Shown here: piece after piece, positions 4,237 through 32,711 of the stretch
Layout: the number at the start of each line of letters is the position of its first letter
Position numbering within the stretch: position 1 is the first letter of the stretch
Notes under the pieces: generated by a model
What the model saw: only the letters and a program-made list of their open reading frames with translations
The model's database searches: none
What the model was told of the DNA's origin: nothing
Translations under genes and position numbers: made by a program
Source: Chlamydiota bacterium
Lineage (GTDB): Bacteria; Auribacterota; JACPWU01
DNA length: 64,000 nt
Direction: 5' to 3'
Assembly: GCA_016196885.1 (NCBI GenBank)
Contig: JACPWU010000002.1
Coordinates: 22,358-86,357, forward strand

Positions 4237-4379
4237 CTTTCACGTAATTTAAAGCGGAAGTTAAGGGGACATCTACTACCGCGGTCGGCCCTTGATCTGC
4301 CATTTAGGCAGCGGGCCTCCCTTGCTGAATTGGGGGGCAATGCAACGGGAGGGAGGCCCACTTACCTTTTGATATCTGG

Positions 4380-4692: not shown

Positions 4693-4711
4693 GACTGACG
4701 AGGGCATTCGC

Positions 4712-4951: not shown

Positions 4952-5042
4952 ACCCTAAATCCGCCGCTCTCTATTTCGCATTCTCCAGTTTTGCAAATGG
5001 CTTGAGTTTCTCTTGTTGAATGCCCCCCAGAAATTTTTCTAT

Positions 5043-15430: not shown

Positions 15431-16645
15431 ATGGCGAAGGAATTGGCTTACGTTTTAATCAATCCGTATACCATTTTGAAATCCAGAACGGGAGGGGTTA
15501 TTGCCCGATTGCTCGGTCGGACAGATCAAGAGTTGATCGGGGTGAGGCTCTTCTCCCCCAGTCAGAGGTTGGTTCAGGAATACGCCGAGCTCATTCGGAC
15601 TCAGGATGTGGAGGATGAAGTAGACATTCGAGATGGTAACAAAGAGGCGGTTCGGGATTTAGTCGCTCAATATGTGCTTGAAAATTATGGACCTGAACCG
15701 AGGACGGGACGGTGCCGGCGTGTTTTGATGCTTCTTTTTTATGGGGAAGATGCGGTTCATAAGTTGAGAGATGAGGTGGTGGGACATATTACCTCTCTTT
15801 CCATCAGTGGCGAAACCATCCGGGACACGTATGGTGATTGCGTCTTGGATAAAAGTGGGAAGGTCCGATATTTTGAGCCGGCTGTTTTGGTGATCCCCAA
15901 TCGAAAAGCGGCTCGAGAAAGTCTGGAGCTTTGGGCCAAATATTCCGATCAAGAGGCTGGGATTTTAGAAGATGTGATCAAGTATCCCAAGGGGGTGAAG
16001 CCCGAAAAGGTTTTGGTGCTCATTAAGCCAGAGAATTTTCAGAGGCCGACCAGTCGCGTCGGAAATATCATTGATATGTTTTCGAAGACGGGGCTTTACA
16101 TCATTGGAGCGAGAATTGTTCAGATGAGTGTAGCCCAGGCGATGGAATTTTATGGTCCTGTGAAGAAGGTGCTTCAGGAGAAAATGAAACCGGCGGTGGC
16201 AGATCGTTTGAAAGCAGCCATGCTAGAAAAATTTGATTTTCCGATGCCTGAGGGGGTGATTCAAAATGCGACTTCAGAGATTGCACCTCTTTTTGGCGCG
16301 CATGAATTTAATAAAATCATCAAATTTATGACAGGGAAAGATCCCACAGAGGTTTCTGAAAAGGAGCATGCACTTCAGGGTGAGCAAAAATGCCTCGCCT
16401 TGGTGTATCAAGGAAGAGATGCCGTTTCCAAGATTCGCGGCGTTTTGGGTCTCACGGATCCTAAGAAGGCGGCGCCGGCCACCGTTCGCCGAGAATATGG
16501 TCAGAATATTTTAGTGAATGCGGCTCATGCCTCTGATTCGGTGGAGAATGCCGAACGGGAGCTGAAGATTTTGGATATTGCAAAGAATGATATTCGGCCG
16601 ATCATTCAAAACTTTTTTTCTCAAAAGGTGGAGAGTTTAAGATGA
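15431..16645 (+). CDS. Tandem nucleoside-diphosphate-kinase-domain protein: N-terminal degenerate NDK-like domain plus C-terminal catalytic NDK domain
   Basis: 404 aa. Two NDK-like starts (AYVLINPYTILKSRTGGVIARLLGR and VLVLIKPENFQRPTSRVGNIIDMF). Catalytic-His motif NAAHASDSVENAERE only in the second domain. Confidence 0.6.
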   Translation: MAKELAYVLINPYTILKSRTGGVIARLLGRTDQELIGVRLFSPSQRLVQEYAELIRTQDVEDEVDIRDGNKEAVRDLVAQYVLENYGPEPRTGRCRRVLMLLFYGEDAVHKLRDEVVGHITSLSISGETIRDTYGDCVLDKSGKVRYFEPAVLVIPNRKAARESLELWAKYSDQEAGILEDVIKYPKGVKPEKVLVLIKPENFQRPTSRVGNIIDMFSKTGLYIIGARIVQMSVAQAMEFYGPVKKVLQEKMKPAVADRLKAAMLEKFDFPMPEGVIQNATSEIAPLFGAHEFNKIIKFMTGKDPTEVSEKEHALQGEQKCLALVYQGRDAVSKIRGVLGLTDPKKAAPATVRREYGQNILVNAAHASDSVENAERELKILDIAKNDIRPIIQNFFSQKVESLR

Positions 16646-17820
16646 ACACCCTGACCAAAACGCAAGTCGGTTTGTCGAAGCGGGTGGTGAGTATCAGCGA
16701 GTCTGAAACCTTGGCGATCAATGCCCGTTCGAATGAATTGAAGGCCCAGGGAATGGATGTGGTGAGCCTTGCGGCTGGGGAGCCTGATTTTGATACGCCA
16801 GAGCATATCAAGGCCGCCGCCAAAAAGGCGATTGATGAAGGTTTTACGAAATACACACCTTCGGGTGGAACGGTCGAACTGAAAAAAGCTATTTGTGAAA
16901 AATTGAAGCGGGATCAACATTTAGAATATGGTCCTGAAAATATCATCGTTTCTTGCGGGGCCAAGCACTCTTTGTTTAATGCGATTTTGACGCTTTGCGA
17001 CAAGGATGATGAGGTGGTGATCCCAGTTCCTTATTGGGTCACTTATCCGGAACTCGTGAGACTGGCCAATGCGACACCCGTTTTCTTGAAGACGCGGGAG
17101 GAAAATGGATTCAAGATTAATCCGGTAGATTTAAAAAAGGTGGTAAGTCGAAAAACAAAAATCATTATCATTAACAGTCCTTCAAATCCAACAGGAGCTG
17201 CCTATTCTGGGGATGAGCTGAGAGAGATTTCTAAAATTGCCTTTTCGGATGGCATTTATGTGATTTCGGATGAGATTTATGAAAAGGTGCTTTACGATGG
17301 GTTGACTCATGAAAGCATCGCCTCTTTTCAGAAGGATCAGACTTTAATTGTCAATGGAGTTTCTAAATCGTATGCCATGACGGGCTGGCGGATCGGTTAT
17401 TTGGCAGGGCCGGCACCTTTTGTGGCTGCAATGAATCGTCTTCAGAGTCACAGCACATCCAATCCGACCTCCATTTCTCAGAAGGCGGCCTTGGCGGCTT
17501 TAAAAGGCTCAGATGAATGCGTGACAAAAATGGTTCAGGCCTTTGAGGAAAGAAGGAATTATATCGTAGATCGCTTGAACAGCATTCCCAAAGTTCATGT
17601 TCGTAAGCCAGAAGGTGCTTTTTATGTTTTTCCCAATATTTCGAAATATGGAGTGGGATCCAACAAGCTTTCTCAACGTTTGCTCGAAGAGGCGCATGTG
17701 GCGGTGATTCCAGGCGCTCCTTTTGGAACAGATGATCACATTCGGCTTTCTTATGCGACTTCGATGGAAAACATCAAGAAGGGGATGGATAGAATAGAGG
17801 AATTTTTTAGAAAACTTTAA
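16642..17820 (+). CDS. aspC: Aspartate/aromatic aminotransferase (PLP fold type I, class I)
   Basis: SLAAGEPDFDTP, IINSPSNPTGAAYS, VSKSYAMTGWRIGY (PLP-Lys region). ATGA overlap with the upstream gene. Confidence 0.85.
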   Translation: MNTLTKTQVGLSKRVVSISESETLAINARSNELKAQGMDVVSLAAGEPDFDTPEHIKAAAKKAIDEGFTKYTPSGGTVELKKAICEKLKRDQHLEYGPENIIVSCGAKHSLFNAILTLCDKDDEVVIPVPYWVTYPELVRLANATPVFLKTREENGFKINPVDLKKVVSRKTKIIIINSPSNPTGAAYSGDELREISKIAFSDGIYVISDEIYEKVLYDGLTHESIASFQKDQTLIVNGVSKSYAMTGWRIGYLAGPAPFVAAMNRLQSHSTSNPTSISQKAALAALKGSDECVTKMVQAFEERRNYIVDRLNSIPKVHVRKPEGAFYVFPNISKYGVGSNKLSQRLLEEAHVAVIPGAPFGTDDHIRLSYATSMENIKKGMDRIEEFFRKL

Positions 17821-17828
17821 TTAGAAAT

Positions 17829-17880
17829 CCGTACTTCGAACATCGTACTTCGATGCTCGATGTTCGAAGTACGAATTACG
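17829..17880. repeat. GTACTTCG/CGAAGTAC-family word hairpin, copy 1
   Basis: ccgtacttcgaacatcgtacttcgatgctcgatgttcgaagtacgaattacgg, between aspC and icd. Confidence 0.55.
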
Positions 17881-17896
17881 GGGTTTAGAATAAAAT

Positions 17897-19132
17897 ATGA
17901 CACGTCACGAAGTTCTTGAGAAGGGTTCGCCTATCATTAAAGAGGGAGGTCGGCTTAAAGTTTCTGTGAAGCCGATTGTCCCTTATATTGAAGGCGATGG
18001 AGTGGGGCCCGATATTTGGGCAGCTTCGCGTCCTGTTTTTGATGCGGCCGTTCGCAAGGCTTATCAGGGCCAGAGAGAAATTCAATGGTGTGAGATTTTT
18101 GCCGGAGAAAAAGCTAAAGATAAAAAGGGCGAATGGCTGCCCAAAGAGACTTTAGATGCGCTTCGTGAATTTAGAGTGGGGATTAAAGGGCCTCTGACGA
18201 CACCGGTCGGTGGAGGAATCCGCAGCCTTAATGTGACGCTTCGCCAGGAGTTGGATCTTTACGCTTGTGTGAGGCCTGTGAGACATTTTGAGGGAGTTCC
18301 CTCGCCTGTGAAAAGGCCAGAGCTTGTAAACATGGTGATTTTTCGGGAGAACACTGAAGATGTTTATGCAGGGATTGAGTGGAAGGAAGGAACGCCTGAG
18401 GCTCAAAAGGTCATTCGATTTTTAAATGAAGAAATGAAATGCCATGTTCGATCAGATTCGGGTATTGGCGTCAAGCCGATGAGTGTGATGGGCTCGAAGC
18501 GCTTGGTTCGCATGGCTATTTTATATGCCCTTCAACATCATAAGCCCACGGTGACCTTGGTGCATAAAGGCAATATCATGAAGTATACCGAAGGTGCTTT
18601 TCGGGAGTGGGGATACGAACTGGCTCGCGATGAGTTCTCTGGGAAGGTCATGAATTGGGAAGAAGTTGAAAAGCATTTTAGCGGCAAGAGACCGCAAGGG
18701 GTCGTGCTCATCCATGATGTGATTGCGGACGCGATGTTTCAGCAGGTTTTGCTGAGGCCAGCGGATTACAGCGTATTAGCGCTTCCTAATTTAAATGGCG
18801 ATTATATATCCGATGCCTTGTTGGCTCAGGTAGGTGGTTTGGGACTGGGACCGGGGGCCAATATTGGAGATGATGTGGCCGTTTTTGAAGCGACGCACGG
18901 CACCGCTCCAAAATATGCGGGCCAGGACAAAGTTAATCCTAGCTCTCTGATTCTCTCTGGAGTGATGATGATGGAGCATCTGGGCTGGGATGAAGCGGCT
19001 CAATTAATTTTAAAGGGTCTTCAGAAAACTTTTAGAGAAAAACGTGTCACTTATGACTTGGAACGTCAGATGGAAGGCGCTAAACTCTTAAAATGCTCCG
19101 AATTTGGTCGAGCGATTATTGAAAATATGTAA
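17897..19132 (+). CDS. icd: Isocitrate dehydrogenase (NADP-dependent, prokaryotic homodimeric type)
   Basis: 411 aa. [32 protein letters not shown] and [10 protein letters not shown] motifs. Confidence 0.9.
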
Positions 19133-19134
19133 AG

Positions 19135-19217
19135 ACCGTACTTCGTGCTTCGTACATCGTACTTCGTAATAAACGAACGACGTACGAAGTACGATGAACA
19201 ATGTACGAAGTACAGCT
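19135..19217. repeat. GTACTTCG/CGAAGTAC-family word hairpin, copy 2
   Basis: ccgtacttcgtgcttcgtacatcgtacttcg...cgtacgaagtacgatgaacaatgtacgaagtac. After icd stop, before tRNA-Asp. Confidence 0.55.
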
Positions 19218-19223
19218 TTTCGG

Positions 19224-19300
19224 GGGGGTGTAGCTCAACCGGCTAGAGCGCTGCCCTGTCACGGCAGAGGTTGCGGGTTCGAGCCCCGTCACTCCCGCCA
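19224..19300 (+). tRNA. tRNA-Asp (anticodon GTC), CCA encoded
   Basis: Hand-folded cloverleaf. Acceptor gggggtg/cactccc; anticodon loop ctGTCac; T-loop ttcgagc; 3' gcca. The minus-strand ORF 19116-19343 over it is spurious. Confidence 0.85.
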
Positions 19301-19302
19301 GT

Positions 19303-19375
19303 TTGGATTTTAGATTGCGGATTTTGGAATAAAAAAATTTCAAAATTTCTAAATTCTAAAATCCAAAATCCAAAA
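19303..19375. repeat. Word hairpin GGATTTTAGATTGCGGATTTTGG / CCAAAATCCAAAATTG
   Basis: Inverted word repeat directly after tRNA-Asp, so it is terminator-like. Confidence 0.5.
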
Positions 19376-19392
19376 TTGAAAAGGGGGATACT

Positions 19393-19956
19393 ATGGTTCA
19401 AATTAATCATAAAGTCACGGATTTTGAGGTGGATGCGTTTCAGAATGAAGAAATTAAGAAGGTTAAATTTTCAGATTATCGTGGCAAATGGATGGTGCTT
19501 ATTTTCTATCCTGCGGATTTTACCTTTGTCTGTCCGACGGAATTAGAAGATGCAGCGAGGCATTATGATGAATTTAAAAAAGAAGGTGCTGAGGTTTTTG
19601 CGGTGAGTACGGATACCGTTTACGCTCATAAAGCTTGGCATGATACATCTCCTGCGATTAAGAATGTCCAATATCCCATGGTTGCGGATCCGACAGGGAA
19701 GGTTTGTAGAGAGTTTGGAACCTACATCGAAGAAGCAGGGCTTTCCTTGCGCGGGACTTTCATTATTGATCCCGATGGGATTTTGAAAACCATTGAGATT
19801 CATGACAACAGCATTGGCCGGAGTGCCAAGGAATTGCTGCGCCGGCTTCAGGCTGCAAAATTTGTGCGGGAGCACAAAGGCGAGGTTTGTCCCGCCAGTT
19901 GGGAACCTGGAGGTAAGACATTAAAGCCAGGGCTCAATCTTGTAGGAAAAATCTAG
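19393..19956 (+). CDS. ahpC: Peroxiredoxin (typical 2-Cys, AhpC/Tsa family)
   Basis: FYPADFTFVCPTEL peroxidatic Cys; C-terminal resolving Cys (GEVCPASWEPG). SD aaaggggga. Confidence 0.9.
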   Translation: MVQINHKVTDFEVDAFQNEEIKKVKFSDYRGKWMVLIFYPADFTFVCPTELEDAARHYDEFKKEGAEVFAVSTDTVYAHKAWHDTSPAIKNVQYPMVADPTGKVCREFGTYIEEAGLSLRGTFIIDPDGILKTIEIHDNSIGRSAKELLRRLQAAKFVREHKGEVCPASWEPGGKTLKPGLNLVGKI

Positions 19957-20799: not shown

Positions 20800-22017
20800 T
20801 CATTTCTTTAATTGCATAAGTTCAATTCTTTCCCGAATATGCTCCTCAAAAGTTAAAGCCTGCATTTGCCCCAGGGGACGTAGAAAGACGGCCCCTGTTT
20901 TTCGAGCCATGTCTTGGAAGCGCTTTTTGTTTTTTGGATGAATCGAATAGCCAATCGCTTGAAGCGCATTTTCCCATCCTTTAAGAACAGAAACAAGACT
21001 TCCTAAACCTCCAAGGGGTTTTACGAAAATGGTGCGATTCAGACAAGAGGGATGAAAAGCAGAATCATTTTCGTAGAGGACTGTCCAGCTTGTATTCGGA
21101 TGACTGGAGAGAGAAAAAGCTTTTTTCTTAAATTGATAGCGGCCTCGTATTTGATGAATCTGAGAGGCTTCTCCCGCAGAGATTTTGCCTGGGGGAAAAA
21201 GATGAGAAATTTCTTTCATGGCTTCAGCCAGTATTTTGGCCCATTCGCGAGCCGAAATTTTTGATTCTTTCTCAACATAAATGGCATGGGGTGATACGCA
21301 ACCTTGTTGATCATAGAGGCAAATGTCATAAGCCGCGCGTCTAGCTAATTTCTTTGCGTTTTGAGAGCGGAGACTTTCTTTATCAATGACCGCGATACTG
21401 ACTTTGTGTCCAAAGGGTAAGAATTTCTTTCTGGAAGGAAGCCGTTTTTGAATTTCTAAAAGGGTCTCATCGTTTCCATAAACATGGATAAGATCAGATG
21501 CTTTAAAAATGGTTTTCTCAAAATTAAATTCTCCGCCTTTCCACCCACAACAAGAAATGCAGTTGCCTAGTTTAGGATCTACTTGACGAATAGATTCAGC
21601 CAAGAGCATGGGAAAGAAAGGTGCGCGGGAAGAACATTTCACGAAAACAGATGATTTGAGAAGAAGCGCCCAAAAAATATCAAACAACATGGGGGTGGGA
21701 ATAATGCCTGCGAAAATAAAACTGGAGAGTTTGGGATTTGAAAAGACGTGTTTTTTCTGAAGGGCCGTCTTTAAATGATGAGATTGAACTTCCCTAAAGG
21801 CGATATTGAGGCCTTCAGAAATAACTTTCCTTGAGCATCCTGTGCTTTCAGAGAGGATGGTTTCTGCCTCCCGACGGGTGGGACTTTTCGTATCTAGCCA
21901 GAGAAGGGTGACTTGATGGAGTTTTTGAATGAGGGCTTCGTTGGGGAGAGGACTTAAGTAGGATGCTTGTTTTTCTTTAAGTCTTTTTAAGATTTTTTTT
22001 AAGTTGTTTTGATTCAT
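20800..22017 (-). CDS. LuxC-family acyl-CoA (acyl-protein) reductase-like protein
   Basis: 405 aa, aldehyde-dehydrogenase-like fold with conserved Cys (DQQGCVSPH). Occurs in the same strand block as a LuxE-like gene. Confidence 0.55.
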   Translation of the reverse strand: MNQNNLKKILKRLKEKQASYLSPLPNEALIQKLHQVTLLWLDTKSPTRREAETILSESTGCSRKVISEGLNIAFREVQSHHLKTALQKKHVFSNPKLSSFIFAGIIPTPMLFDIFWALLLKSSVFVKCSSRAPFFPMLLAESIRQVDPKLGNCISCCGWKGGEFNFEKTIFKASDLIHVYGNDETLLEIQKRLPSRKKFLPFGHKVSIAVIDKESLRSQNAKKLARRAAYDICLYDQQGCVSPHAIYVEKESKISAREWAKILAEAMKEISHLFPPGKISAGEASQIHQIRGRYQFKKKAFSLSSHPNTSWTVLYENDSAFHPSCLNRTIFVKPLGGLGSLVSVLKGWENALQAIGYSIHPKNKKRFQDMARKTGAVFLRPLGQMQALTFEEHIRERIELMQLKK

Positions 22018-22082
22018 AAGACCTTGACAAAAGAAAACTAGTTTATTAAACTAGTTGTGTTGGAAAACTGCAAGGACTTTTT

Positions 22083-22355
22083 ATGATGGAAGAGTATGGA
22101 TATGGACAAGATGTAAGTGCCTTTGAGGCCAAAACCCATCTTTCGGAGCTTTTAAGGGAGACGGAGCAAGGAAGGTCTTTTGTGATTCGTCGCAGGGGGA
22201 AAATGGTTGCAAGGTTGGTTCCCCCTCTACGAGAAAATAAACATGCCGAGATGGATAAAATTCTGGCGTCGTTTCGAGAAATTCGTCGGCATGTTGCAGG
22301 TCGTGGGAAGCCCATCAAGATTAAGAATCTTATTGAAGAAGGAAGAAGGTTTTGA
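22083..22355 (+). CDS. Type II antitoxin, Phd/YefM family
   Basis: 90 aa; VSAFEAKTHLSELLRETEQGRSFVIRRRGKMVARLVPP is a canonical Phd N-terminus. ATGA overlap with the downstream PIN gene. Confidence 0.75.
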   Translation: MMEEYGYGQDVSAFEAKTHLSELLRETEQGRSFVIRRRGKMVARLVPPLRENKHAEMDKILASFREIRRHVAGRGKPIKIKNLIEEGRRF

Positions 22356-22780
22356 TGGATTGGGTTCTGGACTGTTCTTTTGCGCTCTCCTGGACTTTCC
22401 CTGATGAGCGTTCAGAGTCGTCAGAGCGGCTCCTTAAAAATCTATCACAAGAATCTTTACTTTGGGTCCCTTCCTTGTGGTGGGTGGAGCTATCCAATGC
22501 AATGAGGGTGGGTTTAAAGAAGAAGAGGTTGTCAGAAGCTGATTTGACACTGGCGATGGATCATTATGGGTCACTTCGGATTCAAACGGATTTTGCGGGT
22601 CAATCTGACTATGTGTGGCGTCTTCTGAGTTTGACCAGAGAATATGATTTGTCTGCCTATGATGCTTCTTATCTCGAGTTATCTCAGAGAAAGGGTTTGG
22701 GTCTTGCTACTCTGGATCGTGCCTTAGCTTCTGCTGCTCAAAAAGCAGGTGTTAAATTGGCTCTTCGTCACTTAAGTTAA
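22352..22780 (+). CDS. vapC: Type II toxin, VapC (PIN domain)
   Basis: 142 aa; VLDCSFALSW start (LDxS), YDASYLELSQRKGLGLATLDRAL C-terminal PIN signature. Confidence 0.75.
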   Translation: MMDWVLDCSFALSWTFPDERSESSERLLKNLSQESLLWVPSLWWVELSNAMRVGLKKKRLSEADLTLAMDHYGSLRIQTDFAGQSDYVWRLLSLTREYDLSAYDASYLELSQRKGLGLATLDRALASAAQKAGVKLALRHLS

Positions 22781-23863
22781 ATAATTCTGCATAACTAGAG
22801 AGCAACCTCTGGGTTCTGCGCGAGGAGCCCTTCCCAGAATTTCGAATCCATCTCCCATTTTCACACCCATGTCTTCCGTCAAAAGCCCCATGACACTGGA
22901 GCGATTGGCCAAATCATAATGTTGAAGAAGACCTATTTTACCTTTGGGTTGTTCCTCCAGTGTAGAGGGATTGAGCACACGTGTTCTTACCCAAGGAGGA
23001 ATGTTTTTGTAAATTTTTCTTTTTCGTTTCTGAATAAAATTTTGAAGGGTGTTGTCATAAAATTGGGAACCCATTTCGGTCATGCCGTATTCGTTTACAA
23101 TATGGGTGAGAGGAATATCCAATATTTGATGAATCATTTCATAAAGTTCTTTTTTCGCAAGCTCCCGGGATTTCCCTTTGGTGCCCCCTGTTTCCATCAC
23201 ACGTGAACCTGAAGGGAGTTTAAATTTCCACTTTTTCTCGACACAATGATCTAGAAAATGGACGAATGAGAAGGCTGTTCCTAAGATAATGACGGGTTGA
23301 TCGGACGAAGAAAATGATTCCAGTTTTTTCTGAAGGAATTCTGAAAGGAGTTTCCCTTTTTTTAAGAAATAATAGGTTTTACCTTTGATGCCTATTTCTT
23401 TTTCGAGAACACCCATCATGTGACACAGAGATGAATGGGGCATTTCTTGAGGAGTGGGCGTTAGGATGAGCAAGGGCCATCGCTTTTCATGGATGCAAAA
23501 GCTATTTTTAAAATGGATGAGAAGCGATTTTTCGTAGAACCTTAAATTTTCAAGATAGTGGCGACCCTTCTTTTGAAGGGTTGTTCCACTGGTGTGAAAG
23601 ACTTTTTGTGCCTTTCGAAATGGGAAACAGCATAGGATTTCTTCTTTGAAAACAGTTGTGGGTACAAAGGGGATCTCTTTCCAATGGGAAATTTTGCAAG
23701 GGATTCGGCCTAATTGAAGGCAGTATTTTTGAAAAGGGCGATTGTGAAGATATTGATATTTAAAAAGTTCAAGGGCGAGGGAATTAAATTTTTTTTCATT
23801 TGCTTGTGCCTCTTCCATAAAATCCAAAATAAGACAGTCTAATTTTTTTGTGCTGAGAGACAT
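22772..23863 (-). CDS. LuxE-family acyl-protein synthetase/adenylating enzyme-like protein
   Basis: 363 aa; N-terminal LELFKYQYLHNRPFQKYC and HTSGTT(LQKKG) adenylation-type motif. Confidence 0.6.
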   Translation of the reverse strand: MSLSTKKLDCLILDFMEEAQANEKKFNSLALELFKYQYLHNRPFQKYCLQLGRIPCKISHWKEIPFVPTTVFKEEILCCFPFRKAQKVFHTSGTTLQKKGRHYLENLRFYEKSLLIHFKNSFCIHEKRWPLLILTPTPQEMPHSSLCHMMGVLEKEIGIKGKTYYFLKKGKLLSEFLQKKLESFSSSDQPVIILGTAFSFVHFLDHCVEKKWKFKLPSGSRVMETGGTKGKSRELAKKELYEMIHQILDIPLTHIVNEYGMTEMGSQFYDNTLQNFIQKRKRKIYKNIPPWVRTRVLNPSTLEEQPKGKIGLLQHYDLANRSSVMGLLTEDMGVKMGDGFEILGRAPRAEPRGCSLVMQNYLT

Positions 23864-25179
23864 TTTTCAATCACTTTGTAAGCGTGTCCAAGTTGTTTTT
23901 CGGAAATGCTCAAGGGAGGTGTAAAGATGAGCACGTTGCCATCCATCCCATCTGAAAGGAAGATAACTCCTTCTCTCAAAGCTTGCGTAACCAAATCTCT
24001 TGCCCTGCGGGGATCCGCTCTTCTAGAATTTTTCTGAACAATTTCGACTCCGATCATGAGTCCTCTTCCTCGAATTTCGCCGATACAAGGATAGGTCCTT
24101 TGAAGCTTCCGGAGTTGTAAAATCCATTTTTCTCCCAAGATTCGTGCCCTTTCTATCAATTTAAGCTTTTGAATTTCTTGAAGATTCCTAAGGGCCATGG
24201 CACATCCCAAGGGACTTGCCATGAAAGTGCTGGTGTGAAGTGCCTCGTCGTGGTAGCGAGGCCAATGGGACATGACTTTGCGAGTACCGATGCAGGCGGA
24301 AATAGGAAAACCTCCAGAAAGGCCTTTACCAATGGTCATAATATCAGGAACAATGTCACTCGCTTGGAAGGCAAACCAAAATCCAGTTCTCCCCATCCCT
24401 GAATAAATTTCGTCAGCAATCAATAAAACATGATATTGATTGCACAGATGCCGCAGCCCTTTTATGAAGAGGGGAGGGGCCATTCGAATGCCGCCTCTTC
24501 CCTGAATGGGTTCAATCAGCACAGCGCCTATTTTATTTTTTTTGAAAAGCGTTCCCATTTTTTTGAACAAGTGATGGATTTGTTCGGAGGTGAAATTGTG
24601 AGGATAAGAAACTGAAATGCTTCGAAGGCCCAGTTGATTTTTAAAAGGTTGATGTAGATTAAGAAAATTTGTGGCTTTCAAGGCTCCGTAACTCATGCCG
24701 TGATAGCTGCCTTCGAAAGTGATAAGGCCTGATTTTCCCGTGGCCAAAAACGCTGTCTTAATAGCGATTTCAACTGCCTCTGCCCCTGACGATCCAAAAA
24801 TTATTTTTTCAAGAGGGGAGGGAAAAATTTTACTTAAGCGTTCAAGCAATTGGATTTTGGATTTGTCAGGATAGACATCACTCAAGGAATGAAGAAGTTT
24901 TTGGGCCTGTTTCATTAGGGCTTTCACGACGCTAGAATTTGTGTGGCCCGTTTGTGCTACACCAAATCCAGCTGTGAGATCAAGGTAGCGATTCCCATCC
25001 ACATCCCAGACGTTGGCTCCTTGGGCTTTTTCCCAAACAATGGGGGTGTTCTTATTGATAAGGGTGATGTTGGGGCATTCATGACGCAAAAGTTTTTTTG
25101 CCAGGGCCCTAGATTTTGGGCCTGGAATTGCGGTGCTTCTGATTTCAGGAAGAAATGTCCTAGAGGTATTTTTCATCAA
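23839..25179 (-). CDS. Class-III (PLP fold type I) aminotransferase
   Basis: 446 aa; GSSGAEAVEIAIKTA and LLIADEIYSGMGRTGFWFAF...TIGKGLSGGFP (PLP-Lys). Confidence 0.8.
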   Translation of the reverse strand: MMKNTSRTFLPEIRSTAIPGPKSRALAKKLLRHECPNITLINKNTPIVWEKAQGANVWDVDGNRYLDLTAGFGVAQTGHTNSSVVKALMKQAQKLLHSLSDVYPDKSKIQLLERLSKIFPSPLEKIIFGSSGAEAVEIAIKTAFLATGKSGLITFEGSYHGMSYGALKATNFLNLHQPFKNQLGLRSISVSYPHNFTSEQIHHLFKKMGTLFKKNKIGAVLIEPIQGRGGIRMAPPLFIKGLRHLCNQYHVLLIADEIYSGMGRTGFWFAFQASDIVPDIMTIGKGLSGGFPISACIGTRKVMSHWPRYHDEALHTSTFMASPLGCAMALRNLQEIQKLKLIERARILGEKWILQLRKLQRTYPCIGEIRGRGLMIGVEIVQKNSRRADPRRARDLVTQALREGVIFLSDGMDGNVLIFTPPLSISEKQLGHAYKVIEKCLSAQKN

Positions 25180-25281
25180 GACGAATTTACCGTGTCTGTT
25201 AGAGGAAGATCAAGAAAATCCGAAAAGTATTTAATCCCTTTCAGATATCTTTAGAAACCTCTGGACAAATACACTTTTTTG

Positions 25282-25313
25282 GAATAATATGCGATTATAA
25301 TCGCATATTATTC
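25282..25313. promoter_or_regulatory. Perfect 32-bp palindrome GAATAATATGCGATTA|TAATCGCATATTATTC in a divergent intergenic region
   Basis: 16+16 nt exact reverse complement, flanked by T-runs. Lies between the divergent starts at 25179 (-) and 25349 (+). Confidence 0.5.
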
Positions 25314-25348: not shown

Positions 25349-26632
25349 ATGGACTCTAAAATTCCGAAATATCAGAATCCTTGGTGGGAAAACCCACAGG
25401 CCATGCTTGATGACCAGCATCTTCTTGCCATTCGAGGGAAACCCTACGAATATACCCCATCGCTGGTTTGTGAGACGCCATTTGCTCCAGGGGACATTTT
25501 TGTCTTGAGAGGTCCTAGACAGGTTGGGAAGACAACAACCCTTAAAATGTTTATTCACCGTTTGCTCCAAAAAGAATGTGTCGACCCACACTCTGTTTTT
25601 TACTTGAGTTGTGAGGCGATCATTGATTTTAGAGAGTTGATAGAAGTTCTTTCAGAATATTTTGCGGACCGGAAAGGAAAAAGAACTTACCTCTTCCTGG
25701 ATGAAATTTCTTTTGTTTCAAAGTGGCAAAGGGCGATTCTTGCAATTGCAAATCAAGGCTTGATAAATTCTTCAACCCTTGTGTTGACAGGATCCAATGC
25801 AAGAGATTTGAGAGAGAGCAGTGAGCGTCTTCCCGGAAGAAGAGGGAAGGGAAAAGATCTGGAACTTTTTCCGCTGTCTATTCCACAATTGAAAACATTA
25901 CCCTGTTTTCAAGAGTGTTCGTTCAAGAGGCTTTTAGAGATTTATATGCTTGTGGGAGGGTTTCCCAGGGCAATTGCAGACTTTGTCACGCTGGGGGCTG
26001 TTACTGACAATACTTATGATATCTATCGTAATTGGATTGTGGGGGATGCCAGTCGCTATGATTTAAGACAGGAGACATTAAAGCAGATTCTCTTTCGGAT
26101 TGCCCAAACCATGGGAAGTCGTATCACCTGGCCTAAACTGATTGAGAATAGCCCTGTCAAAAGCCATGAAACAGCGCTTGAATATGTTGAACATTTGAAA
26201 GATGCTTTTCTCTGTCATGTCCATTACTGTTATGACCCCGATCTAAACGGCCCCTCTTTTCATAAGGCGAGAAAAATCTATTTTATGGATCCTCTTCTTT
26301 ATGGGGTTGCTGTATGTTGGCGTGAGGGCAGGGTCAATATAGCCCAGTGGATGAAAGAAACGCTTCAGGATGATTCAGAATACGGCCACATGTTTGAGTC
26401 TACTGTGATCAATCACGCGGCAAGAATTTATCCTGAAATTTTCTTTTGGTACTCTGCCAAAGAGCAAAAAGAGATTGACCTCGTTCTCAAATATTCAGGT
26501 GAAACAAGCCTTTATGAAGTCAAGCGATCAGAAGATTCAACGGTGCTTCGCGCCTTGGGTAGAAACGTCTCTATTCTTCATCCGCAATCGTTCGAGAAAT
26601 TTCTAACAAATTGTTCAGTGCCTCGTTCTTGA
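25349..26632 (+). CDS. AAA+ ATPase with C-terminal DUF4143-type (PD-(D/E)xK-like) domain
   Basis: 427 aa; Walker A LRGPRQVGKTTTL; architecture of the AAA_14+DUF4143 family. Confidence 0.7.
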   Translation: MDSKIPKYQNPWWENPQAMLDDQHLLAIRGKPYEYTPSLVCETPFAPGDIFVLRGPRQVGKTTTLKMFIHRLLQKECVDPHSVFYLSCEAIIDFRELIEVLSEYFADRKGKRTYLFLDEISFVSKWQRAILAIANQGLINSSTLVLTGSNARDLRESSERLPGRRGKGKDLELFPLSIPQLKTLPCFQECSFKRLLEIYMLVGGFPRAIADFVTLGAVTDNTYDIYRNWIVGDASRYDLRQETLKQILFRIAQTMGSRITWPKLIENSPVKSHETALEYVEHLKDAFLCHVHYCYDPDLNGPSFHKARKIYFMDPLLYGVAVCWREGRVNIAQWMKETLQDDSEYGHMFESTVINHAARIYPEIFFWYSAKEQKEIDLVLKYSGETSLYEVKRSEDSTVLRALGRNVSILHPQSFEKFLTNCSVPRS

Positions 26633-28078
26633 AGAAAGTTTTTTAGTTTGCTTAATATCGAACTCATTTTCCGAAATCAAAATGGCGGTCATCCCTCCTT
26701 GCTGGGCGACGTTGACGATTTCTCTCTGGGAGGCTCGGCCTAAAATGCCCAATCCATAAGGAGAATAAATGAAGCCGCAGACGACATTCAAGTTTTTCTC
26801 AGTGACTCTTCCTTTTTCATCTAGGATGGGAAATTTTTTCTTTCTTGTCGCGCATCGTTTTTGAAGAACATAAGAACCTGGATCTCGAATGGCCTTCTCG
26901 AGGGCCTTCTCCCAAGTTATTTTTGGAGTCTCGTCCCCCATCAAAATGCCCATGCCTCCGTAACCGCGATTGGGTTTGAGAACCCATTCATTTCGATGGT
27001 GAATCGCATGGGAGATCAGGTCAACCCTTTTTCCATCGGGGTCTGTCGTTTTTGTCTCTCGCACGAGCCGTGTCCACAAAACATGTTTCTTGAAAATTTT
27101 CCTTTCCTCTAAATTGAAGTGGTGTTCAAACTCTGGGTTGCTGAAAATTTCAAAGGCGCTTTTATGATCGAGTTCTCCGGAGAGTCCTGAAACCACGACA
27201 TTTTCTTGAAAGGCTTTTCGAATGGCTTTAAGAGGCTTTCCCTCTTCTTTTTCCATTTCGATGAATTCTTCGAGGGTGCTGTCACGGTAAAGAATGTCTA
27301 GGGGCAAATCCTTATACACGATTTCTCCCTTTTTGATTTTGAGGTCTCGTGGATCTGCAACCACGGCTTCGATTCCTTGGGATTGAAAAAGTTGGGCGAG
27401 GTAAAAAAAATCGAGAGGTCCGCCTTTGGTTCGGTCATCTAGGATGAGTCCGATGTTACATCGACGCTTGCCCAACATTTTTAAATGGGCTTGAAGTTCC
27501 CATAGAAGAATGGAGCGAATGTCATCATTGGGCCGGACTTGAAGGTTTGGGGCGAGGGGACGTAAGGAGTGGATCACCGTTTCTAAAATAATTCTTTCAG
27601 CCGTCGGCGTGTAATGAAGGCCGCCCACCCCTACGCCATTAACCTCCAGAAAATGAAAGGCCGCCCGCCAATCTTGTCCACTGAAGTTGGCATTTGCGTC
27701 CCAGCGGGTGATGGCGGTACGGGGAGCCTCTCGATTTTGGGGGAAGTATTGGAGGAACCATTCCTCTTCTTTTTTCTGAAAGGGGAAGAGTTTTTTCACT
27801 TTAGGATTTTTGAGATAAAGCCATGACAATTTTTGATAGGCCTGGTTCATGTGGTAGCATGTCTTTAGAAAAAAGGTGCGTTGGAGAGGTGTGATCAAGC
27901 GAGGCCTCATCAGAAGTGGGATCAGGCGGGTAGAGCCGTTTTCCTCTTCGTACACCATGCCTTTTTTGCGGCTTTCTTTTTGAATTTCTCGAAAAAGTTT
28001 TTGAATCTCGTGTTTGTCCAACTTCATGAAGAGCTGATGAATGGAGTTAGAGAGGGAATAATCGGGCCAAGGACTCAT
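26615..28078 (-). CDS. Circularly permuted ATP-grasp (type 2)-like ligase
   Basis: About 487 aa from ATG at 28078 (ORF track start 28120 runs into an upstream hairpin repeat). Gly-rich ATP-grasp-like segments PNRGYGGMGILMG and VAQQGGMTAIL. Family call is tentative. Confidence 0.5.
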   Translation of the reverse strand: MSPWPDYSLSNSIHQLFMKLDKHEIQKLFREIQKESRKKGMVYEEENGSTRLIPLLMRPRLITPLQRTFFLKTCYHMNQAYQKLSWLYLKNPKVKKLFPFQKKEEEWFLQYFPQNREAPRTAITRWDANANFSGQDWRAAFHFLEVNGVGVGGLHYTPTAERIILETVIHSLRPLAPNLQVRPNDDIRSILLWELQAHLKMLGKRRCNIGLILDDRTKGGPLDFFYLAQLFQSQGIEAVVADPRDLKIKKGEIVYKDLPLDILYRDSTLEEFIEMEKEEGKPLKAIRKAFQENVVVSGLSGELDHKSAFEIFSNPEFEHHFNLEERKIFKKHVLWTRLVRETKTTDPDGKRVDLISHAIHHRNEWVLKPNRGYGGMGILMGDETPKITWEKALEKAIRDPGSYVLQKRCATRKKKFPILDEKGRVTEKNLNVVCGFIYSPYGLGILGRASQREIVNVAQQGGMTAILISENEFDIKQTKKLSSRTRH

Positions 28079-28245: not shown

Positions 28246-28479
28246 ATGGTTGATACAGATTTGAAAGATGTGAAGGAGATCGTTTCTACTGTGAAAGAGT
28301 TGCAGGGAAATATTAAGGATTTAGTGGAGATTTTTTCAAAATTGCCTTCGGGGAAGCACCGCGGTGTTTCTGGAGATTTAGAATTGACCACGAAAGAAAA
28401 AGAAGTCTTGAAATTAATTCAGCGGGAACAAGAGAGGGCAGATCAGGTCGTCAATGCCTTGACGCAGGCGATTCGTTAG
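28246..28479 (+). CDS. Hypothetical small protein (77 aa)
   Basis: SD aaaggag; charged helical protein; no family. Confidence 0.4.
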   Translation: MVDTDLKDVKEIVSTVKELQGNIKDLVEIFSKLPSGKHRGVSGDLELTTKEKEVLKLIQREQERADQVVNALTQAIR

Positions 28480-28700: not shown

Positions 28701-29726
28701 ATGCGAGTCGGGCTGACATACAATCTCAAAGAAAATGCCAGTCTAGCAGATGAACATTCTGCAGAATGGGACTTACCTGAAACCATTGACGCCATCGCGA
28801 ATGCTCTTTCCCGCGAGCATGAGGTCATTTGGGTTTTGGCGGATGCCGATGCCTATGAGAAGTTGAGACATTCTCGGGCAGACATCGTGTTCAATGTTGC
28901 GGAAGGAAAAGACGGCCCCAATCGAGAAGCACATTTACCTGCCATTTTAGAATTCTTGAGAATTCCATACACAGGTTCTGACTCTTTGACTTTGAGTCTT
29001 TGTCTCAACAAGGCTCGGACCAAGGAAATTCTTTTCTATCACGGGATTCCCACACCTGATTTCCAAGTTTTTCACGCCTCCAATGAACCTCTCGTCTTGA
29101 CCGATTATCCAATGCTGGTGAAGCCGTTATGGGAAGGTTCGAGCATTGGAATTCATGACAATGTCTGGGTTGAAAATGAGAAGGAACTTCGTTCAAAAAT
29201 GAAGGGGATCATTGTTCAACATCATCAACCTGCGATTGTTGAAGAAGCCTTGACGGGAAGAGAGTTCACCGTGGCTCTTTTGGGAAATGGAACTCAGTTG
29301 AAGGTGTTGCCTTTGGTTGAAGTGATGTTGGATGCATTGCCCCATGAGGCCCATCCGCTTTATTCTTATGAGGCGAAATGGATTTGGGACACCCCTGAAA
29401 AGCCTTTGGATATTTTTCATTGTCCGGCCCAGGTGGAGGATGTTTTAAAGGGAAAAATAGAAGGAATTGCCAAGGCCGCTTTTAGAGCCTTGGGGTGCCG
29501 TGATTGGTGCCGGATCGATGTTCGGTTGGACCGAGAGGGAAATCCCTCCATCCTAGAGGTGAACCCGCTCCCGGGCATTTTACCCAATCCTCGTCAAAAT
29601 TCTTGTTTTCCAAAAGCGGCTCGGGCGGCTGGGATGGATTATCCCGAAATGGTTCTTTCCATTTTGGGGGCGGCGCTGGAGCGCTGTGGAATGTTAGAAT
29701 CTGTGGGGAGTTCGAAAAGGCGTTAG
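28701..29726 (+). CDS. D-alanine--D-alanine ligase-family ATP-grasp enzyme (paralog A)
   Basis: 341 aa; ADIVFNVAEGKDGPNREAHLPAILEFLRIPYTGSDSLTLSLCLNKARTKEIL matches the Ddl N-terminal/central-domain consensus. Confidence 0.7.
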   Translation: MRVGLTYNLKENASLADEHSAEWDLPETIDAIANALSREHEVIWVLADADAYEKLRHSRADIVFNVAEGKDGPNREAHLPAILEFLRIPYTGSDSLTLSLCLNKARTKEILFYHGIPTPDFQVFHASNEPLVLTDYPMLVKPLWEGSSIGIHDNVWVENEKELRSKMKGIIVQHHQPAIVEEALTGREFTVALLGNGTQLKVLPLVEVMLDALPHEAHPLYSYEAKWIWDTPEKPLDIFHCPAQVEDVLKGKIEGIAKAAFRALGCRDWCRIDVRLDREGNPSILEVNPLPGILPNPRQNSCFPKAARAAGMDYPEMVLSILGAALERCGMLESVGSSKRR

Positions 29727-29896
29727 CCCGCATTTCTCATCAGATTTCGTCGCGAGAGCGTCGAGTCTGCCTTGGATGCGAGGAAGACGCTCCGTGCCAT
29801 GCGAGGCATACTTTACAGTATGTTGAGCGTGGCCGACCGAGTCTGCACGGAGAGACGAGGCGGAATCGGAGAAGAGCAGCAGAAATGTGATGAGAA

Positions 29897-30952: not shown

Positions 30953-31385
30953 GGAGATTCTCAAGGCGTCAAAAGTTTTTAGCCAAGCCGAGGTTGCTTG
31001 TGCCCTTTCTCTTTTCGAGATTTATCTGGAGAGAGGAGGAGCGGATGAGTATGTTTTTTGCTGTGCCTGCGATGAGGCAGATGTTGTTCAGGGATTGATT
31101 TGCTATGGGAAGGCTTCTCTGACGGATGCAGTTTATGATCTTTATTGGGTGGTGACGCATCCAGTCCATCAGGGAAGAGGGATCGGGAGCTTGCTCATGG
31201 AAGAACTGGACCATCGCCTGAAAATTTTAGAGGCTAGAATGATTTTAGCTGAGACTTCTTCGAGGGCTGATTACGAGAAGTCTCGGGCGTTCTACCGTGC
31301 CCATGGGTATGAGCTTGTTTCGACGATTCAAGATTATTATGCGTTGGGAGAAGATTTGGTTGTTTTTGGGAAAAGATATCCTTAA
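30897..31385 (+). CDS. GNAT-family N-acetyltransferase (possible beta-lysine N-acetyltransferase, AblB-like)
   Basis: GNAT motif A HPVHQGRGIGSLLMEEL. Start at ATG 30897 (ORF track 30831) overlaps the previous gene by about 56 nt in another frame. Confidence 0.65.
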   Translation: MGKVFRVREATPSDRERIEEILKASKVFSQAEVACALSLFEIYLERGGADEYVFCCACDEADVVQGLICYGKASLTDAVYDLYWVVTHPVHQGRGIGSLLMEELDHRLKILEARMILAETSSRADYEKSRAFYRAHGYELVSTIQDYYALGEDLVVFGKRYP

Positions 31386-31430
31386 GACTGTTATTCGTAC
31401 TTCGTTTTAAAAGAAATAAAGGAGGATTTT

Positions 31431-32678: not shown

Positions 32679-32711
32679 ACATTTTCTTCTCGACCTTACC
32701 TTCGGATCATC

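What the first reader, a model, noticed from the sequence alone, without database searches (positions are those of the whole stretch)
20800..25179. LuxC-like reductase, LuxE-like acyl-protein synthetase and class-III aminotransferase on one strand, interrupted by an opposite-strand Phd-VapC module
Acyl activation (LuxE-like), acyl reduction to an aldehyde (LuxC-like) and a PLP aminotransferase together suggest conversion of a fatty or other acid to a primary amine through an aldehyde. The TA pair 22083-22780 sits exactly between the reductase and the synthetase genes on the other strand. It overlaps the LuxE-like gene's 3' end by 9 nt, which looks like a secondary insertion into a former operon. 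The perfect 32-bp palindrome at 25282-25313 lies in the promoter region of this cluster.
Basis: partly seen in the sequence, partly recalled or inferred. Interest (0 to 1): 0.55.

Follow-up and report, generated by a model that had tools for sequence, protein, structure and literature searches.

The report
Split acid-to-amine operon with old toxin-antitoxin insert
An uncultured Chlamydiae-like bacterium carries a four-gene pathway, so far unstudied, that probably turns a carboxylic acid into an amine and joins it to something else; in this lineage it has been split by a long-retained toxin-antitoxin pair and a candidate defence gene.

Summary
All the described genes are present. They are a LuxC-like reductase (20800-22017, -), Phd-VapC (22083-22780, +), a LuxE-like synthetase (22772-23863, -) and a class-III aminotransferase (23839-25179, -). 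The 9-nt overlap and the 32-bp palindrome are also real.

Both acyl-carrying cysteines of the solved LuxC-LuxE complex are conserved.

The cluster is wider than reported. The closest relative (L096) has one uninterrupted operon: glutathione-synthetase-fold ATP-grasp ligase, aminotransferase, LuxE, LuxC. In the window that ligase is at 26615-28078. It is cut off from the aminotransferase by a lineage-specific AAA_14/DUF4143 gene, a PADLOC candidate.

In 61 of 73 species loci LuxC directly follows LuxE, and 30 of 80 also have a class-III aminotransferase next to the pair. So the TA pair is a secondary insertion, but an old one. A relative at 50-69% identity (L002) has the same pair at the same place, diverged as much as its flanks and with a conserved operator.

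Other relatives carry unrelated genes at the same junction.

The palindrome lies in sequence created by the AAA_14 insertion, not at the ancestral operon promoter.

The substrate is unknown, and "fatty" is not shown.

This is a new variant of a known chemical logic, of moderate interest.

The parts
20800..22017 (-). LuxC-like acyl-thioester reductase, 405 aa. It is the last gene of the ancestral operon and is now separated from LuxE.
   Evidence: Matches PF05893 with E=2.6e-56. Matches PDB 7xc6_A with E=3.5e-14, or 3.1e-29 with a profile; 'YDQQGC' C240 aligns with the catalytic Cys296. All invariant residues are kept. The N-terminus is about 15-45 aa shorter than in relatives.
22024..22061 (+). 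phd-vapC promoter-like site (TTGACA-17-TAAACT) overlapping the inverted/direct repeat AAACTAGTTTAtTAAACTAGTT. It begins 7 nt from the LuxC start codon.
   Evidence: See (I12). The same repeat and the TTGACA hexamer are conserved in L002 although the proteins are only about 50-60% identical.
22083..22355 (+). Phd/YefM-family antitoxin
   Evidence: Matches PF02604 at 35.7 bits, above the cutoff. It overlaps vapC by 4 nt. It is 62% identical to the L002 copy at the same site.
22352..22780 (+). PIN-domain (VapC-type) toxin
   Evidence: Matches PF01850 at 35.8 bits. Acidic residues D7, E46, D104 and D123 can be read in the sequence. It is 51% identical to the L002 copy. It overlaps the LuxE 3' end convergently by 9 nt.
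22772..23863 (-). LuxE-like acyl-protein synthetase, an adenylating enzyme that acylates itself
   Evidence: Matches PF04443 with E=2.9e-26 over its full length. Matches PDB 7xc6_E with E=2.9e-18. 'RGCSL' C354 aligns with LuxE Cys364, and R345 with Arg355. Both are invariant in alignment A2.
23839..25179 (-). Class-III (omega-type) aminotransferase of a distinct subtype. It overlaps the LuxE start by 25 nt.
   Evidence: Matches PF00202 with E=5.9e-102. The closest PDB entries are the archaeal racemase 9wrf and GABA aminotransferases. Signature relative to PuuE/GabT: R141 to M/L, E211 to R (invariant), Q242 to Y/F, the PLP lysine kept, and R398 lost.
25282..25313 (.). Perfect 32-bp palindrome followed by T7 on the + strand. 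It lies in the 169-nt divergent spacer between the aminotransferase and the AAA_14 gene.
   Evidence: The RNA hairpin has a free energy of -18.2 kcal/mol, z = -8.7. It scores as terminator-like on the + strand and overlaps a + strand promoter-like site at 25262-25290.
25349..26632 (+). Inserted AAA_14/DUF4143 ATPase, a candidate phage-defence gene, lying between the ligase and the aminotransferase
   Evidence: Matches PF13173 and PF13635. Matches PADLOC PDC-S01 with E=3.1e-34. It is absent from L096, L004, L009 and L014. The L002 copy is only 22.5% identical and has the opposite orientation relative to the operon.
26615..28078 (-). Circularly permuted ATP-grasp carboxylate-amine ligase with a eukaryotic glutathione-synthetase fold. 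It is the first gene of the ancestral operon.
   Evidence: AlphaFold2 gives pLDDT 92.5 and pTM 0.91. Foldseek matches are glutathione synthetases (E about 1e-19 to 1e-15, TM 0.6-0.7), Cp1B, GspS, and YjfC/YgiC. A profile search matches 3n6x with E=2e-8 and 9cjn with E=3e-6. In L096 it overlaps the aminotransferase start by 10 nt.
28246..28479 (+). Conserved 77-aa ORF transcribed divergently from the ligase; function unknown
   Evidence: It has no Pfam or PADLOC hit. It is 74% identical in L002 and is also present in L096 at the same position.

Best explanation
The region is the remnant of a four-gene operon: ATP-grasp ligase, class-III aminotransferase, LuxE-like, LuxC-like.

Inferred chemistry:
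1. LuxE adenylates a free carboxylic acid and moves the acyl group onto its own C-terminal Cys354.
2. The acyl group passes to Cys240 of LuxC and is reduced with NAD(P)H to an aldehyde.
3. The aminotransferase converts the aldehyde to a primary amine.
4. The glutathione-synthetase-fold ligase then uses ATP to join an amine and a carboxylate into an amide. Most simply it conjugates the new amine.

The acid is unknown. The aminotransferase has a hydrophobic residue where GABA-type enzymes have the arginine that binds the substrate carboxylate. This argues for a tail with no carboxylate, but not specifically a fatty one.

History in this lineage, shown by comparison: the operon was broken twice by accessory genes. 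A Phd-VapC module entered the LuxE|LuxC junction before the window genome and L002 split, and it has been inherited vertically since. An AAA_14/DUF4143 gene entered the ligase|aminotransferase junction independently.

LuxC now starts 7 nt from the -35 element of the TA promoter. It must be expressed either from a promoter inside the TA region or by read-through antisense to the TA genes.
For: Shown:
- Family membership and conserved catalytic residues.
- An intact, overlapping ligase-AT-LuxE-LuxC operon in L096, and a contiguous AT-LuxE-LuxC in L010.
- In 61 of 73 species loci LuxC lies directly downstream of LuxE.
- An aminotransferase lies next to LuxE-LuxC in 30 of 80 loci across Verrucomicrobiia, Planctomycetota, UBP4, Geobacter, Nitrospirota and Methylomirabilota. 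It comes in two sequence types, so it was recruited at least twice.
- The ligase fold.
- TA divergence equals that of the flanking genes, and the operator is conserved.
- A quick NJ tree groups the window with L002, with L096 outside.
- The AAA_14 copies are only 22.5% identical.

Precedent: a LuxC-like reductase (TabE) and an omega-transaminase (TabA) make dodecylamine (bioRxiv 10.1101/2025.08.11.669332).
Against: - No biochemistry exists for any member of this operon.
- The NCBIfam equivalog scores are far below cutoff: LuxC 82 against 750, LuxE 72 against 550. These are therefore not the luminescence enzymes, and their substrate range cannot be carried over.
- The aminotransferase lacks the canonical arginine (GabT R398) that binds the amino donor's carboxylate. 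Its best PDB match is a racemase, so transamination is plausible but unproven.
- In other phyla the ligase family sits beside lysine 2,3-aminomutase, Ddl-like ligases and TldD/PmbA, not beside LuxE/LuxC. The same kinds of genes flank it on the other side in the window. It may therefore serve another pathway.
- The window-plus-L002 grouping rests on small identity differences, and LuxC alone contradicts it.
- No promoter-like site for LuxC was found on the - strand between LuxC and the middle of the TA region. This was a consensus scan only.
Confidence: 0.55

Rival explanations
1. Ligase-first route, analogous to LysW/ArgW-type amino-group-carrier pathways. The ATP-grasp enzyme first masks the amino group of an amino-dicarboxylic acid by forming an amide. 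LuxE and LuxC then reduce the free carboxylate to a semialdehyde, and the aminotransferase makes a diamino compound.
For: The ligase comes first in the gene order, as in L096. The sequence activation, reduction, class-III transamination matches LysZ/LysY/LysJ and ArgB/ArgC/ArgD (established knowledge). LysX/ArgX appears among the weak fold matches. Acetylornithine and LysJ-type models score well with the aminotransferase.
Against: The aminotransferase lacks the arginine (GabT R141 position) that in ArgD/LysJ-type enzymes binds the substrate's alpha-carboxylate. No carrier protein with an acidic C-terminus is present, and the 77-aa ORF does not look like LysW. Most AT-LuxE-LuxC operons in other phyla have no ligase at all.
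Confidence: 0.12
2. The aminotransferase does not act on the LuxC aldehyde. It supplies or modifies the acid substrate, for example by amino acid/keto acid interconversion or racemisation. The product of the cluster is then an aldehyde or a derived alcohol, as in the ADH-LuxE-LuxC operons.
For: The best PDB match is a broad-specificity amino-acid racemase. The canonical donor-binding arginine is missing. Some LuxE-LuxC pairs are coupled to a Zn alcohol dehydrogenase instead, as in L011.
Against: Two unrelated class-III aminotransferase types were recruited independently next to LuxE-LuxC. This is most simply explained by a shared aldehyde substrate. The racemases keep R398 and have D at the 211 position, unlike this subtype. 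The AT and LuxE genes overlap by 25 nt.
Confidence: 0.15
3. The ligase is only a syntenic neighbour. It belongs with the adjacent lysine-2,3-aminomutase / GNAT / Ddl-like module, a beta-lysine-derived product. The LuxE/LuxC/AT triad is a separate three-gene pathway.
For: Ligase homologues in two other contexts lie divergently beside TldD/PmbA, LAM and Ddl-like genes (L013; L095). The window has Ddl-like x2, GNAT and LAM on the ligase's other side. Triads in other phyla lack the ligase.
Against: All six complete loci of this clade keep the ligase directly upstream of the aminotransferase, apart from the AAA_14 inserts in the window and L002. These are the window, L002, L004, L009, L014 and L096. 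In L096 the two genes overlap by 10 nt. Four of these loci have no LAM or Ddl genes nearby.
Confidence: 0.2
4. The 32-bp palindrome is the operator of the aminotransferase-LuxE promoter.
For: It lies 103 nt upstream of the aminotransferase start in a divergent spacer. It is a perfect dyad of the kind dimeric repressors bind, and it is unique in the window.
Against: The spacer exists only because of the lineage-specific AAA_14 insertion; L096, L004 and L009 have no such spacer. The palindrome is 36 nt from the AAA_14 start and overlaps a + strand promoter-like site. With its T7 tail it also scores as a + strand intrinsic terminator. No regulator gene is adjacent, and it does not resemble the TA operator.
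Confidence: 0.2

Closest known systems
LuxC-LuxE fatty acid reductase of luminous bacteria (Photobacterium phosphoreum, PDB 7xc6)
   Same: Both proteins match the two chains of this complex. The acyl-accepting Cys364 and Arg355 of LuxE and the catalytic Cys296 of LuxC are conserved. The genes are normally adjacent in the order LuxE then LuxC.
   Different: There is no luxA, luxB or luxD within 10 kb. The equivalog scores are far below cutoff. LuxC is about 70 aa shorter. The pair is coupled to an aminotransferase and a ligase, and the substrate is unknown.
Reduction-transamination routes to alkylamines: TabE/TabA (tambjamine BE-18591), TamH, PigE, and carboxylic-acid-reductase plus omega-transaminase cascades
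   Same: The logic is the same: activated acyl to aldehyde to primary amine. TabE groups with LuxC in the ALDH superfamily and TabA is an omega-transaminase. The PigE model and structure match the aminotransferase.
   Different: TabE works on an acyl-ACP or acyl-CoA without ATP. Here a LuxE-type self-acylating synthetase activates a free acid. There is no pyrrole or polyketide context. The aminotransferase has a different active-site signature.
LuxC/LuxE homologues in flagellin-glycosylation and O-antigen islands (Aeromonas, Enterobacteriaceae)
   Same: These are LuxE/LuxC pairs embedded among glycosyltransferases, with untested roles in decorating glycans. The relatives L004, L009 and L014 place the operon directly after GT1, Wzx-like flippase and GT2 genes.
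   Different: Those islands carry an ACP, FabG and an acyl-CoA ligase, and they have no class-III aminotransferase or GS-fold ligase partner. The window itself has no glycosyltransferases next to the operon.
Glutathione synthetase / glutathionylspermidine synthetase / Cp1B family of circularly permuted ATP-grasp C-N ligases
   Same: The fold matches over the whole length, TM 0.6-0.7, and a profile search matches 3n6x and Cp1B. All of these enzymes join a carboxylate to an amine using ATP. GspS and trypanothione synthetase acylate a polyamine's primary amine.
   Different: Identity is only 10-17%. The Pfam CP_ATPgrasp_2 score is below the gathering cutoff, 17 against 32 bits. The substrates are unknown.
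Type II Phd/YefM-VapC toxin-antitoxin modules
   Same: The antitoxin gene comes first with a 4-nt overlap, the PIN acidic residues are present, and repeats overlap the promoter.
   Different: The pair is embedded convergently inside a biosynthetic operon and has been kept there across about 40-50% protein divergence. Its promoter abuts the LuxC start codon.

Membership tests
LuxC acyl-CoA/acyl-protein reductase family (PF05893) | Sequence match above the family threshold | tested here: met
   191.7 bits against a cutoff of 21, E=2.6e-56. Matches 7xc6_A with E=3.5e-14, or 3.1e-29 with a profile.
LuxC acyl-CoA/acyl-protein reductase family (PF05893) | Catalytic cysteine (P. phosphoreum Cys296) in the DQQxC motif | tested here: met
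   C240 in YDQQGCVSP aligns with YDQQACFST.
LuxC of the lux operon (NCBIfam NF052251 equivalog) | Equivalog score, and a lux operon context (luxA/B/D) | tested here: not met
   82.1 bits against a cutoff of 750. The neighbouring genes are not lux genes.
LuxE acyl-protein synthetase family (PF04443) | Full-length sequence match above threshold | tested here: met
   92.7 bits against 24.9, covering residues 18-363. Matches 7xc6_E with E=2.9e-18.
LuxE acyl-protein synthetase family (PF04443) | Self-acylated cysteine about 10 residues from the C-terminus (Cys364), and Arg355 | tested here: met
   C354 (RGCSL) and R345 align with these residues and are invariant in six relatives.
LuxE of the lux operon (NCBIfam NF052244 equivalog) | Equivalog score | tested here: not met
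   72.5 bits against a cutoff of 550.
Class-III (fold type I) aminotransferases (PF00202) | Sequence match, and the PLP-binding lysine | tested here: met
   341.8 bits. K285 (TIGKGLS) aligns with the Schiff-base lysine of PuuE.
GABA / acetylornithine-type 2-oxoglutarate-dependent aminotransferases | The Glu211-Arg398 pair, and Arg141 for the substrate carboxylate (E. coli GabT numbering, from established knowledge) | tested here: not met
   R141 to M, E211 to R, R398 to I. The same pattern holds in 17 operon-linked relatives. All NCBIfam equivalog cutoffs are missed.
Transaminase activity on the LuxC aldehyde | Measured amination of an aldehyde | not testable with these tools
   Only gene context supports it.
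Circularly permuted ATP-grasp C-N ligases (GS/GspS/CP_ATPgrasp_2) | Fold | tested here: met
   The model has pLDDT 92.5. Foldseek gives E about 1e-19 to 1e-15 to glutathione synthetases, and also matches Cp1B, GspS, and YjfC/YgiC.
Circularly permuted ATP-grasp C-N ligases (GS/GspS/CP_ATPgrasp_2) | Pfam PF14403 gathering score | tested here: not met
   17.1 bits against 32. A family profile does reach 3n6x, with E=2.1e-8.
Type II toxin-antitoxin, Phd/YefM-VapC | Both domains above threshold, antitoxin upstream with overlapping stop and start, PIN acidic residues, and a repeat at the promoter | tested here: met
   Toxicity and neutralisation were not tested.
PADLOC PDC-S01 candidate defence gene (AAA_14/DUF4143) | Match to the PADLOC model | tested here: met
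   E=3.1e-34. The family is itself only a candidate, and its function is untested.

The most novel reading that the evidence does not exclude
The ligase-AT-LuxE-LuxC operon encodes an undescribed route from a free acid to an N-substituted amide, possibly a decoration of a surface glycan, in Auribacterota- and Chlamydiae-like bacteria.

Its aminotransferase would represent a new aldehyde-aminating subtype in which the carboxylate-binding arginine has moved from position 398 to position 211.

In the window lineage the embedded Phd-VapC module has been kept because its promoter/operator, which abuts LuxC, now gates aldehyde production.
Probability: 0.15. Interest if true: 0.65.

Novelty: new variant of a known kind. 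Interest (0 to 1): 0.42.

Why it matters
LuxE-LuxC pairs are widespread outside luminous bacteria: the genome scan returned 578 confirmed relatives, a lower bound. Almost none has a known role. This locus and its relatives define a recurrent aminotransferase-LuxE-LuxC module. It is a natural counterpart of the carboxylic-acid-reductase plus transaminase cascades used in biocatalysis. In one clade it is tied to an amide-forming ligase.

The aminotransferase subtype has a rearranged active site that could be useful for aldehyde amination.

The locus is also a clean natural example of accessory genes repeatedly landing at the same gene junctions of a biosynthetic operon. These are a TA pair, a candidate defence ATPase, a glycosyltransferase and a giant AAA/VWA protein. 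One of these inserts has stayed stably fixed.

Tried and rejected
- I looked for direct repeats or target-site duplications around the TA pair and the AAA_14 gene and found nothing convincing.
- I searched for the palindrome and its half-site elsewhere in the window and found no other copy. It is therefore not a dispersed repeat.
- I annotated conserved neighbours of the Verrucomicrobiia triads. They are QueE-like, Gfo/Idh/MocA-like and membrane proteins that look like lineage synteny, and they say nothing about the substrate.
- PADLOC gave no hit for the TA proteins, the ligase or the 77-aa ORF.
- A literature search found no paper describing a LuxE/LuxC/class-III aminotransferase operon, and nothing for Chlamydiae.
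- I rejected a recent TA insertion because TA divergence equals that of the flanking genes.
- I rejected a TA pair ancestral to the whole family because the junction is contiguous in L096, L010 and 61 of 73 loci.
- I rejected GABA or acetylornithine aminotransferase, because both substrate arginines are missing.
- The large genes inserted in L004 and L014, and the giant gene downstream of LuxC in L010, are not related to one another.
- Not attempted: substrate-pocket modelling of LuxE and LuxC.

Full report
SOURCE
The window comes from contig JACOUD010000070.1 of MAG GCA_016178005.1. NCBI labels it "Chlamydiae bacterium". The nearest species representative in the GTDB-based collection is labelled Candidatus Auribacterota.

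OBSERVATION
- LuxC-like, 20800-22017 (-), PF05893, E=2.6e-56.
- Phd, 22083-22355 (+).
- PIN/VapC, 22352-22780 (+).
- LuxE-like, 22772-23863 (-), PF04443, E=2.9e-26.
- Class-III aminotransferase, 23839-25179 (-), PF00202, E=5.9e-102.

The convergent 9-nt overlap of vapC with luxE is real. The perfect 32-bp palindrome at 25282-25313 is real and unique in the window.

ARE THESE REALLY LuxC AND LuxE TYPE ENZYMES?
Both proteins match the two chains of the one solved LuxC-LuxE complex, 7xc6.
- The alignments place LuxE C354 (RGCSL, tenth residue from the C-terminus) on Cys364, the residue that takes the acyl group from acyl-AMP. R345 aligns with Arg355.
- LuxC C240 (YDQQGC) aligns with the catalytic Cys296. 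The residue roles are taken from PMC9157457.
- These residues are invariant among relatives.
- The NCBIfam equivalog scores are far below cutoff, 82 against 750 and 72 against 550.

So these are family members, not the luminescence enzymes. Their substrate cannot be assumed to be myristate. The window's LuxC lacks about 15-45 N-terminal residues that relatives have.

THE OPERON IS LARGER THAN REPORTED
Context look-ups for LuxC relatives show a conserved protein of about 470 aa directly upstream of the aminotransferase.

In the window it lies at 26615-28078 (-). It is separated from the aminotransferase by an opposite-strand AAA_14/DUF4143 gene at 25349-26632.

In L096, the relative with the highest LuxC identity (55%), the four genes are contiguous and overlapping:
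- ligase, 621-2048
- aminotransferase, 2039-3379
- LuxE, 3355-4473
- LuxC, 4473-5825

The 470-aa family has no Pfam assignment above threshold. Other evidence identifies it:
- A 58-sequence alignment gave an AlphaFold2 model with pLDDT 92.5.
- Its best PDB neighbours are eukaryotic glutathione synthetases (E about 1e-19 to 1e-15, TM 0.6-0.7).
- Next come the E-64 amide ligase Cp1B, glutathionylspermidine and trypanothione synthetases, and YjfC/YgiC.
- A sequence profile also reaches 3n6x (E=2e-8) and Cp1B (E=3e-6).

All of these are ATP-dependent carboxylate-amine ligases (for Cp1B).

HOW GENERAL IS THE MODULE?
A scan of one genome per species found at least 578 LuxE relatives. Among the 80 best loci:
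- 61 of the 73 with enough downstream sequence have LuxC directly after LuxE on the same strand.
- 23 have a class-III aminotransferase upstream and 7 have one downstream.

The upstream aminotransferases are 43-57% identical to the window's. They occur in Verrucomicrobiia, Planctomycetota, UBP4, Geobacter and others. They share a signature relative to PuuE/GabT:
- the arginine at the R141 position is L or M;
- E211 is an invariant R;
- Q242 is Y, F or W;
- the PLP lysine is kept;
- the otherwise near-universal R398 is a small or variable residue.

The aminotransferases of Nitrospirota and Methylomirabilota loci, downstream of LuxC in the former and upstream of LuxE in the latter, are a different type with D141, E211, Q242 and R398. 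LuxE-LuxC has therefore recruited a class-III aminotransferase at least twice. This is the best contextual evidence that the aldehyde is the aminotransferase's substrate. Elsewhere a Zn alcohol dehydrogenase takes that place (L011).

The hydrophobic residue at position 141 argues against a GABA-like or ornithine-like substrate carrying a carboxylate. It does not establish a long alkyl chain.

THE TA PAIR
L002 is a relative from a different MAG. Its ligase, aminotransferase, LuxE and LuxC are 50-69% identical to the window's. It carries a Phd-PIN pair at exactly the same junction and also overlaps the LuxE 3' end.

Its Phd and PIN are 62% and 51% identical to the window's, the same range as the flanking genes. 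The promoter-like TTGACA and the repeat AAACTAGTTTAnTAAACTAGTT are conserved in both.

A quick NJ tree of the four concatenated proteins groups the window with L002 and places L096, which has the intact operon, outside them. The margin is small, and LuxC alone disagrees.

The simplest reading is one insertion in the common ancestor of the window and L002, retained since.

The same junction holds unrelated genes in other relatives:
- a 1123-aa glycosyltransferase on the opposite strand (L004);
- a GlpD-like dehydrogenase and an epimerase on the same strand (L009);
- a 2149-aa AAA/VWA protein (L014 and L007).

The ligase|aminotransferase junction was also hit twice, by AAA_14/DUF4143 genes that are only 22.5% identical and differently oriented. 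The window's copy matches the PADLOC candidate PDC-S01 with E=3e-34.

CONSEQUENCES FOR EXPRESSION (INFERENCE)
The LuxC start codon is 7 nt from the -35 hexamer of the TA promoter and 65 nt from the phd start. The consensus scan found no - strand promoter-like site between LuxC and the LuxE 3' end.

LuxC is therefore transcribed either from an unrecognised promoter that overlaps the TA operator, or by read-through from LuxE antisense to phd-vapC. Neither could be tested here.

THE PALINDROME
It lies in the 169-nt spacer between the aminotransferase and the AAA_14 gene, 103 nt from the former's start and 36 nt from the latter's.

This spacer does not exist in relatives without the insertion. The palindrome is therefore not part of the ancestral operon's control region. 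That region should lie upstream of the ligase, around 28.08-28.25 kb, opposite a conserved 77-aa ORF.

The palindrome overlaps a + strand promoter-like site at 25262-25290. With its T7 tail it also scores as a + strand intrinsic terminator, at -18.2 kcal/mol and z = -8.7. Its role is unresolved.

CAVEAT ON THE LIGASE
The ligase family is large, with 562 hits in many phyla. In two sampled contexts elsewhere it lies divergently beside a TldD/PmbA pair, a lysine 2,3-aminomutase and a Ddl-like ligase.

In the window, two Ddl-like ligases, a GNAT, a lysine 2,3-aminomutase and another faint ATP-grasp sit on its other side. Its link to the triad rests on one clade: six loci, one of them with overlapping genes.

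COMPARISON WITH KNOWN SYSTEMS
The chemistry resembles reduction-transamination routes to alkylamines, namely TabE/TabA, PigE and TamH, and engineered CAR plus transaminase cascades.

LuxC/LuxE pairs are also known, untested, in glycan-decoration islands. Three relatives put this operon directly after glycosyltransferase and flippase genes.

I found no paper describing a LuxE/LuxC/class-III aminotransferase operon or this ligase association.

VERDICT
The cluster is a split four-gene operon. The TA insertion is secondary but old. The palindrome belongs to a second insertion. The substrate is unknown.

This is a new variant of a known kind, of moderate interest.

Noticed in passing
window 28701-33629 (+): This is an operon-like run: two Ddl-like ATP-grasp ligases (28701-29726, 29897-30952), a GNAT acetyltransferase (30831-31385), a KamA-type lysine 2,3-aminomutase (31431-32678) and a 305-aa protein with a faint ATPgrasp_ST match (32712-33629). 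It is transcribed divergently from the GS-fold ligase. In L013 and L095, homologues of that ligase sit beside LAM, Ddl-like and TldD/PmbA genes. This suggests a separate conserved system, possibly a beta-lysine-derived peptide, of unknown function.
   Followed up: partly
window 28246-28479 (+): This is a 77-aa ORF with no family match. It is 74% identical in L002 and also present in L096, always divergent from the ligase. Its C-terminal half (LTTKEKEVLKLIQREQ) is reminiscent of an HTH start, so it could be a small regulator.
   Followed up: partly
window 25349-26632 (+): This AAA_14/DUF4143 ATPase matches the PADLOC candidate defence family PDC-S01 (E=3e-34). It is inserted between the ligase and the aminotransferase, and its 3' end overlaps the ligase 3' end by 18 nt. 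L002 has an unrelated copy plus a DUF4143 fragment at the same junction in the other orientation.
   Followed up: partly
L014:10126-16575 (-) and L007:1-5511 (-): In the Auribacterota MAG GCA_041906865.1 the LuxE|LuxC junction holds a giant protein of more than 2100 aa on the opposite strand. It begins with repeated units of about 40-50 aa containing the motif KWYLVNS-D-MS-EGK. By eye it contains AAA (MoxR/dynein-like) and VWA-like regions; I did not run it against Pfam.
   Followed up: no
L009:7212-9862 (+): In one relative the LuxE|LuxC junction carries same-strand genes for a GlpD-like FAD dehydrogenase (DAO + DAO_C) and an NAD-dependent epimerase/dehydratase. These may be true pathway additions rather than mobile cargo.
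   Followed up: no
window 19116-19343 (-): An ORF translation here (…GVTGLEPATSAVTGQRSSRLSYTP…) looks like the antisense or sense reading of a tRNA gene region between icd and ahpC. I did not check it with the tRNA finder.
   Followed up: no
window 16642-19956 and L004, L007: The block ndk-like, aspartate aminotransferase, isocitrate dehydrogenase, ahpC downstream of LuxC is syntenic across the clade. LuxC therefore sits at a stable chromosomal boundary while the genes upstream of it vary.
   Followed up: partly
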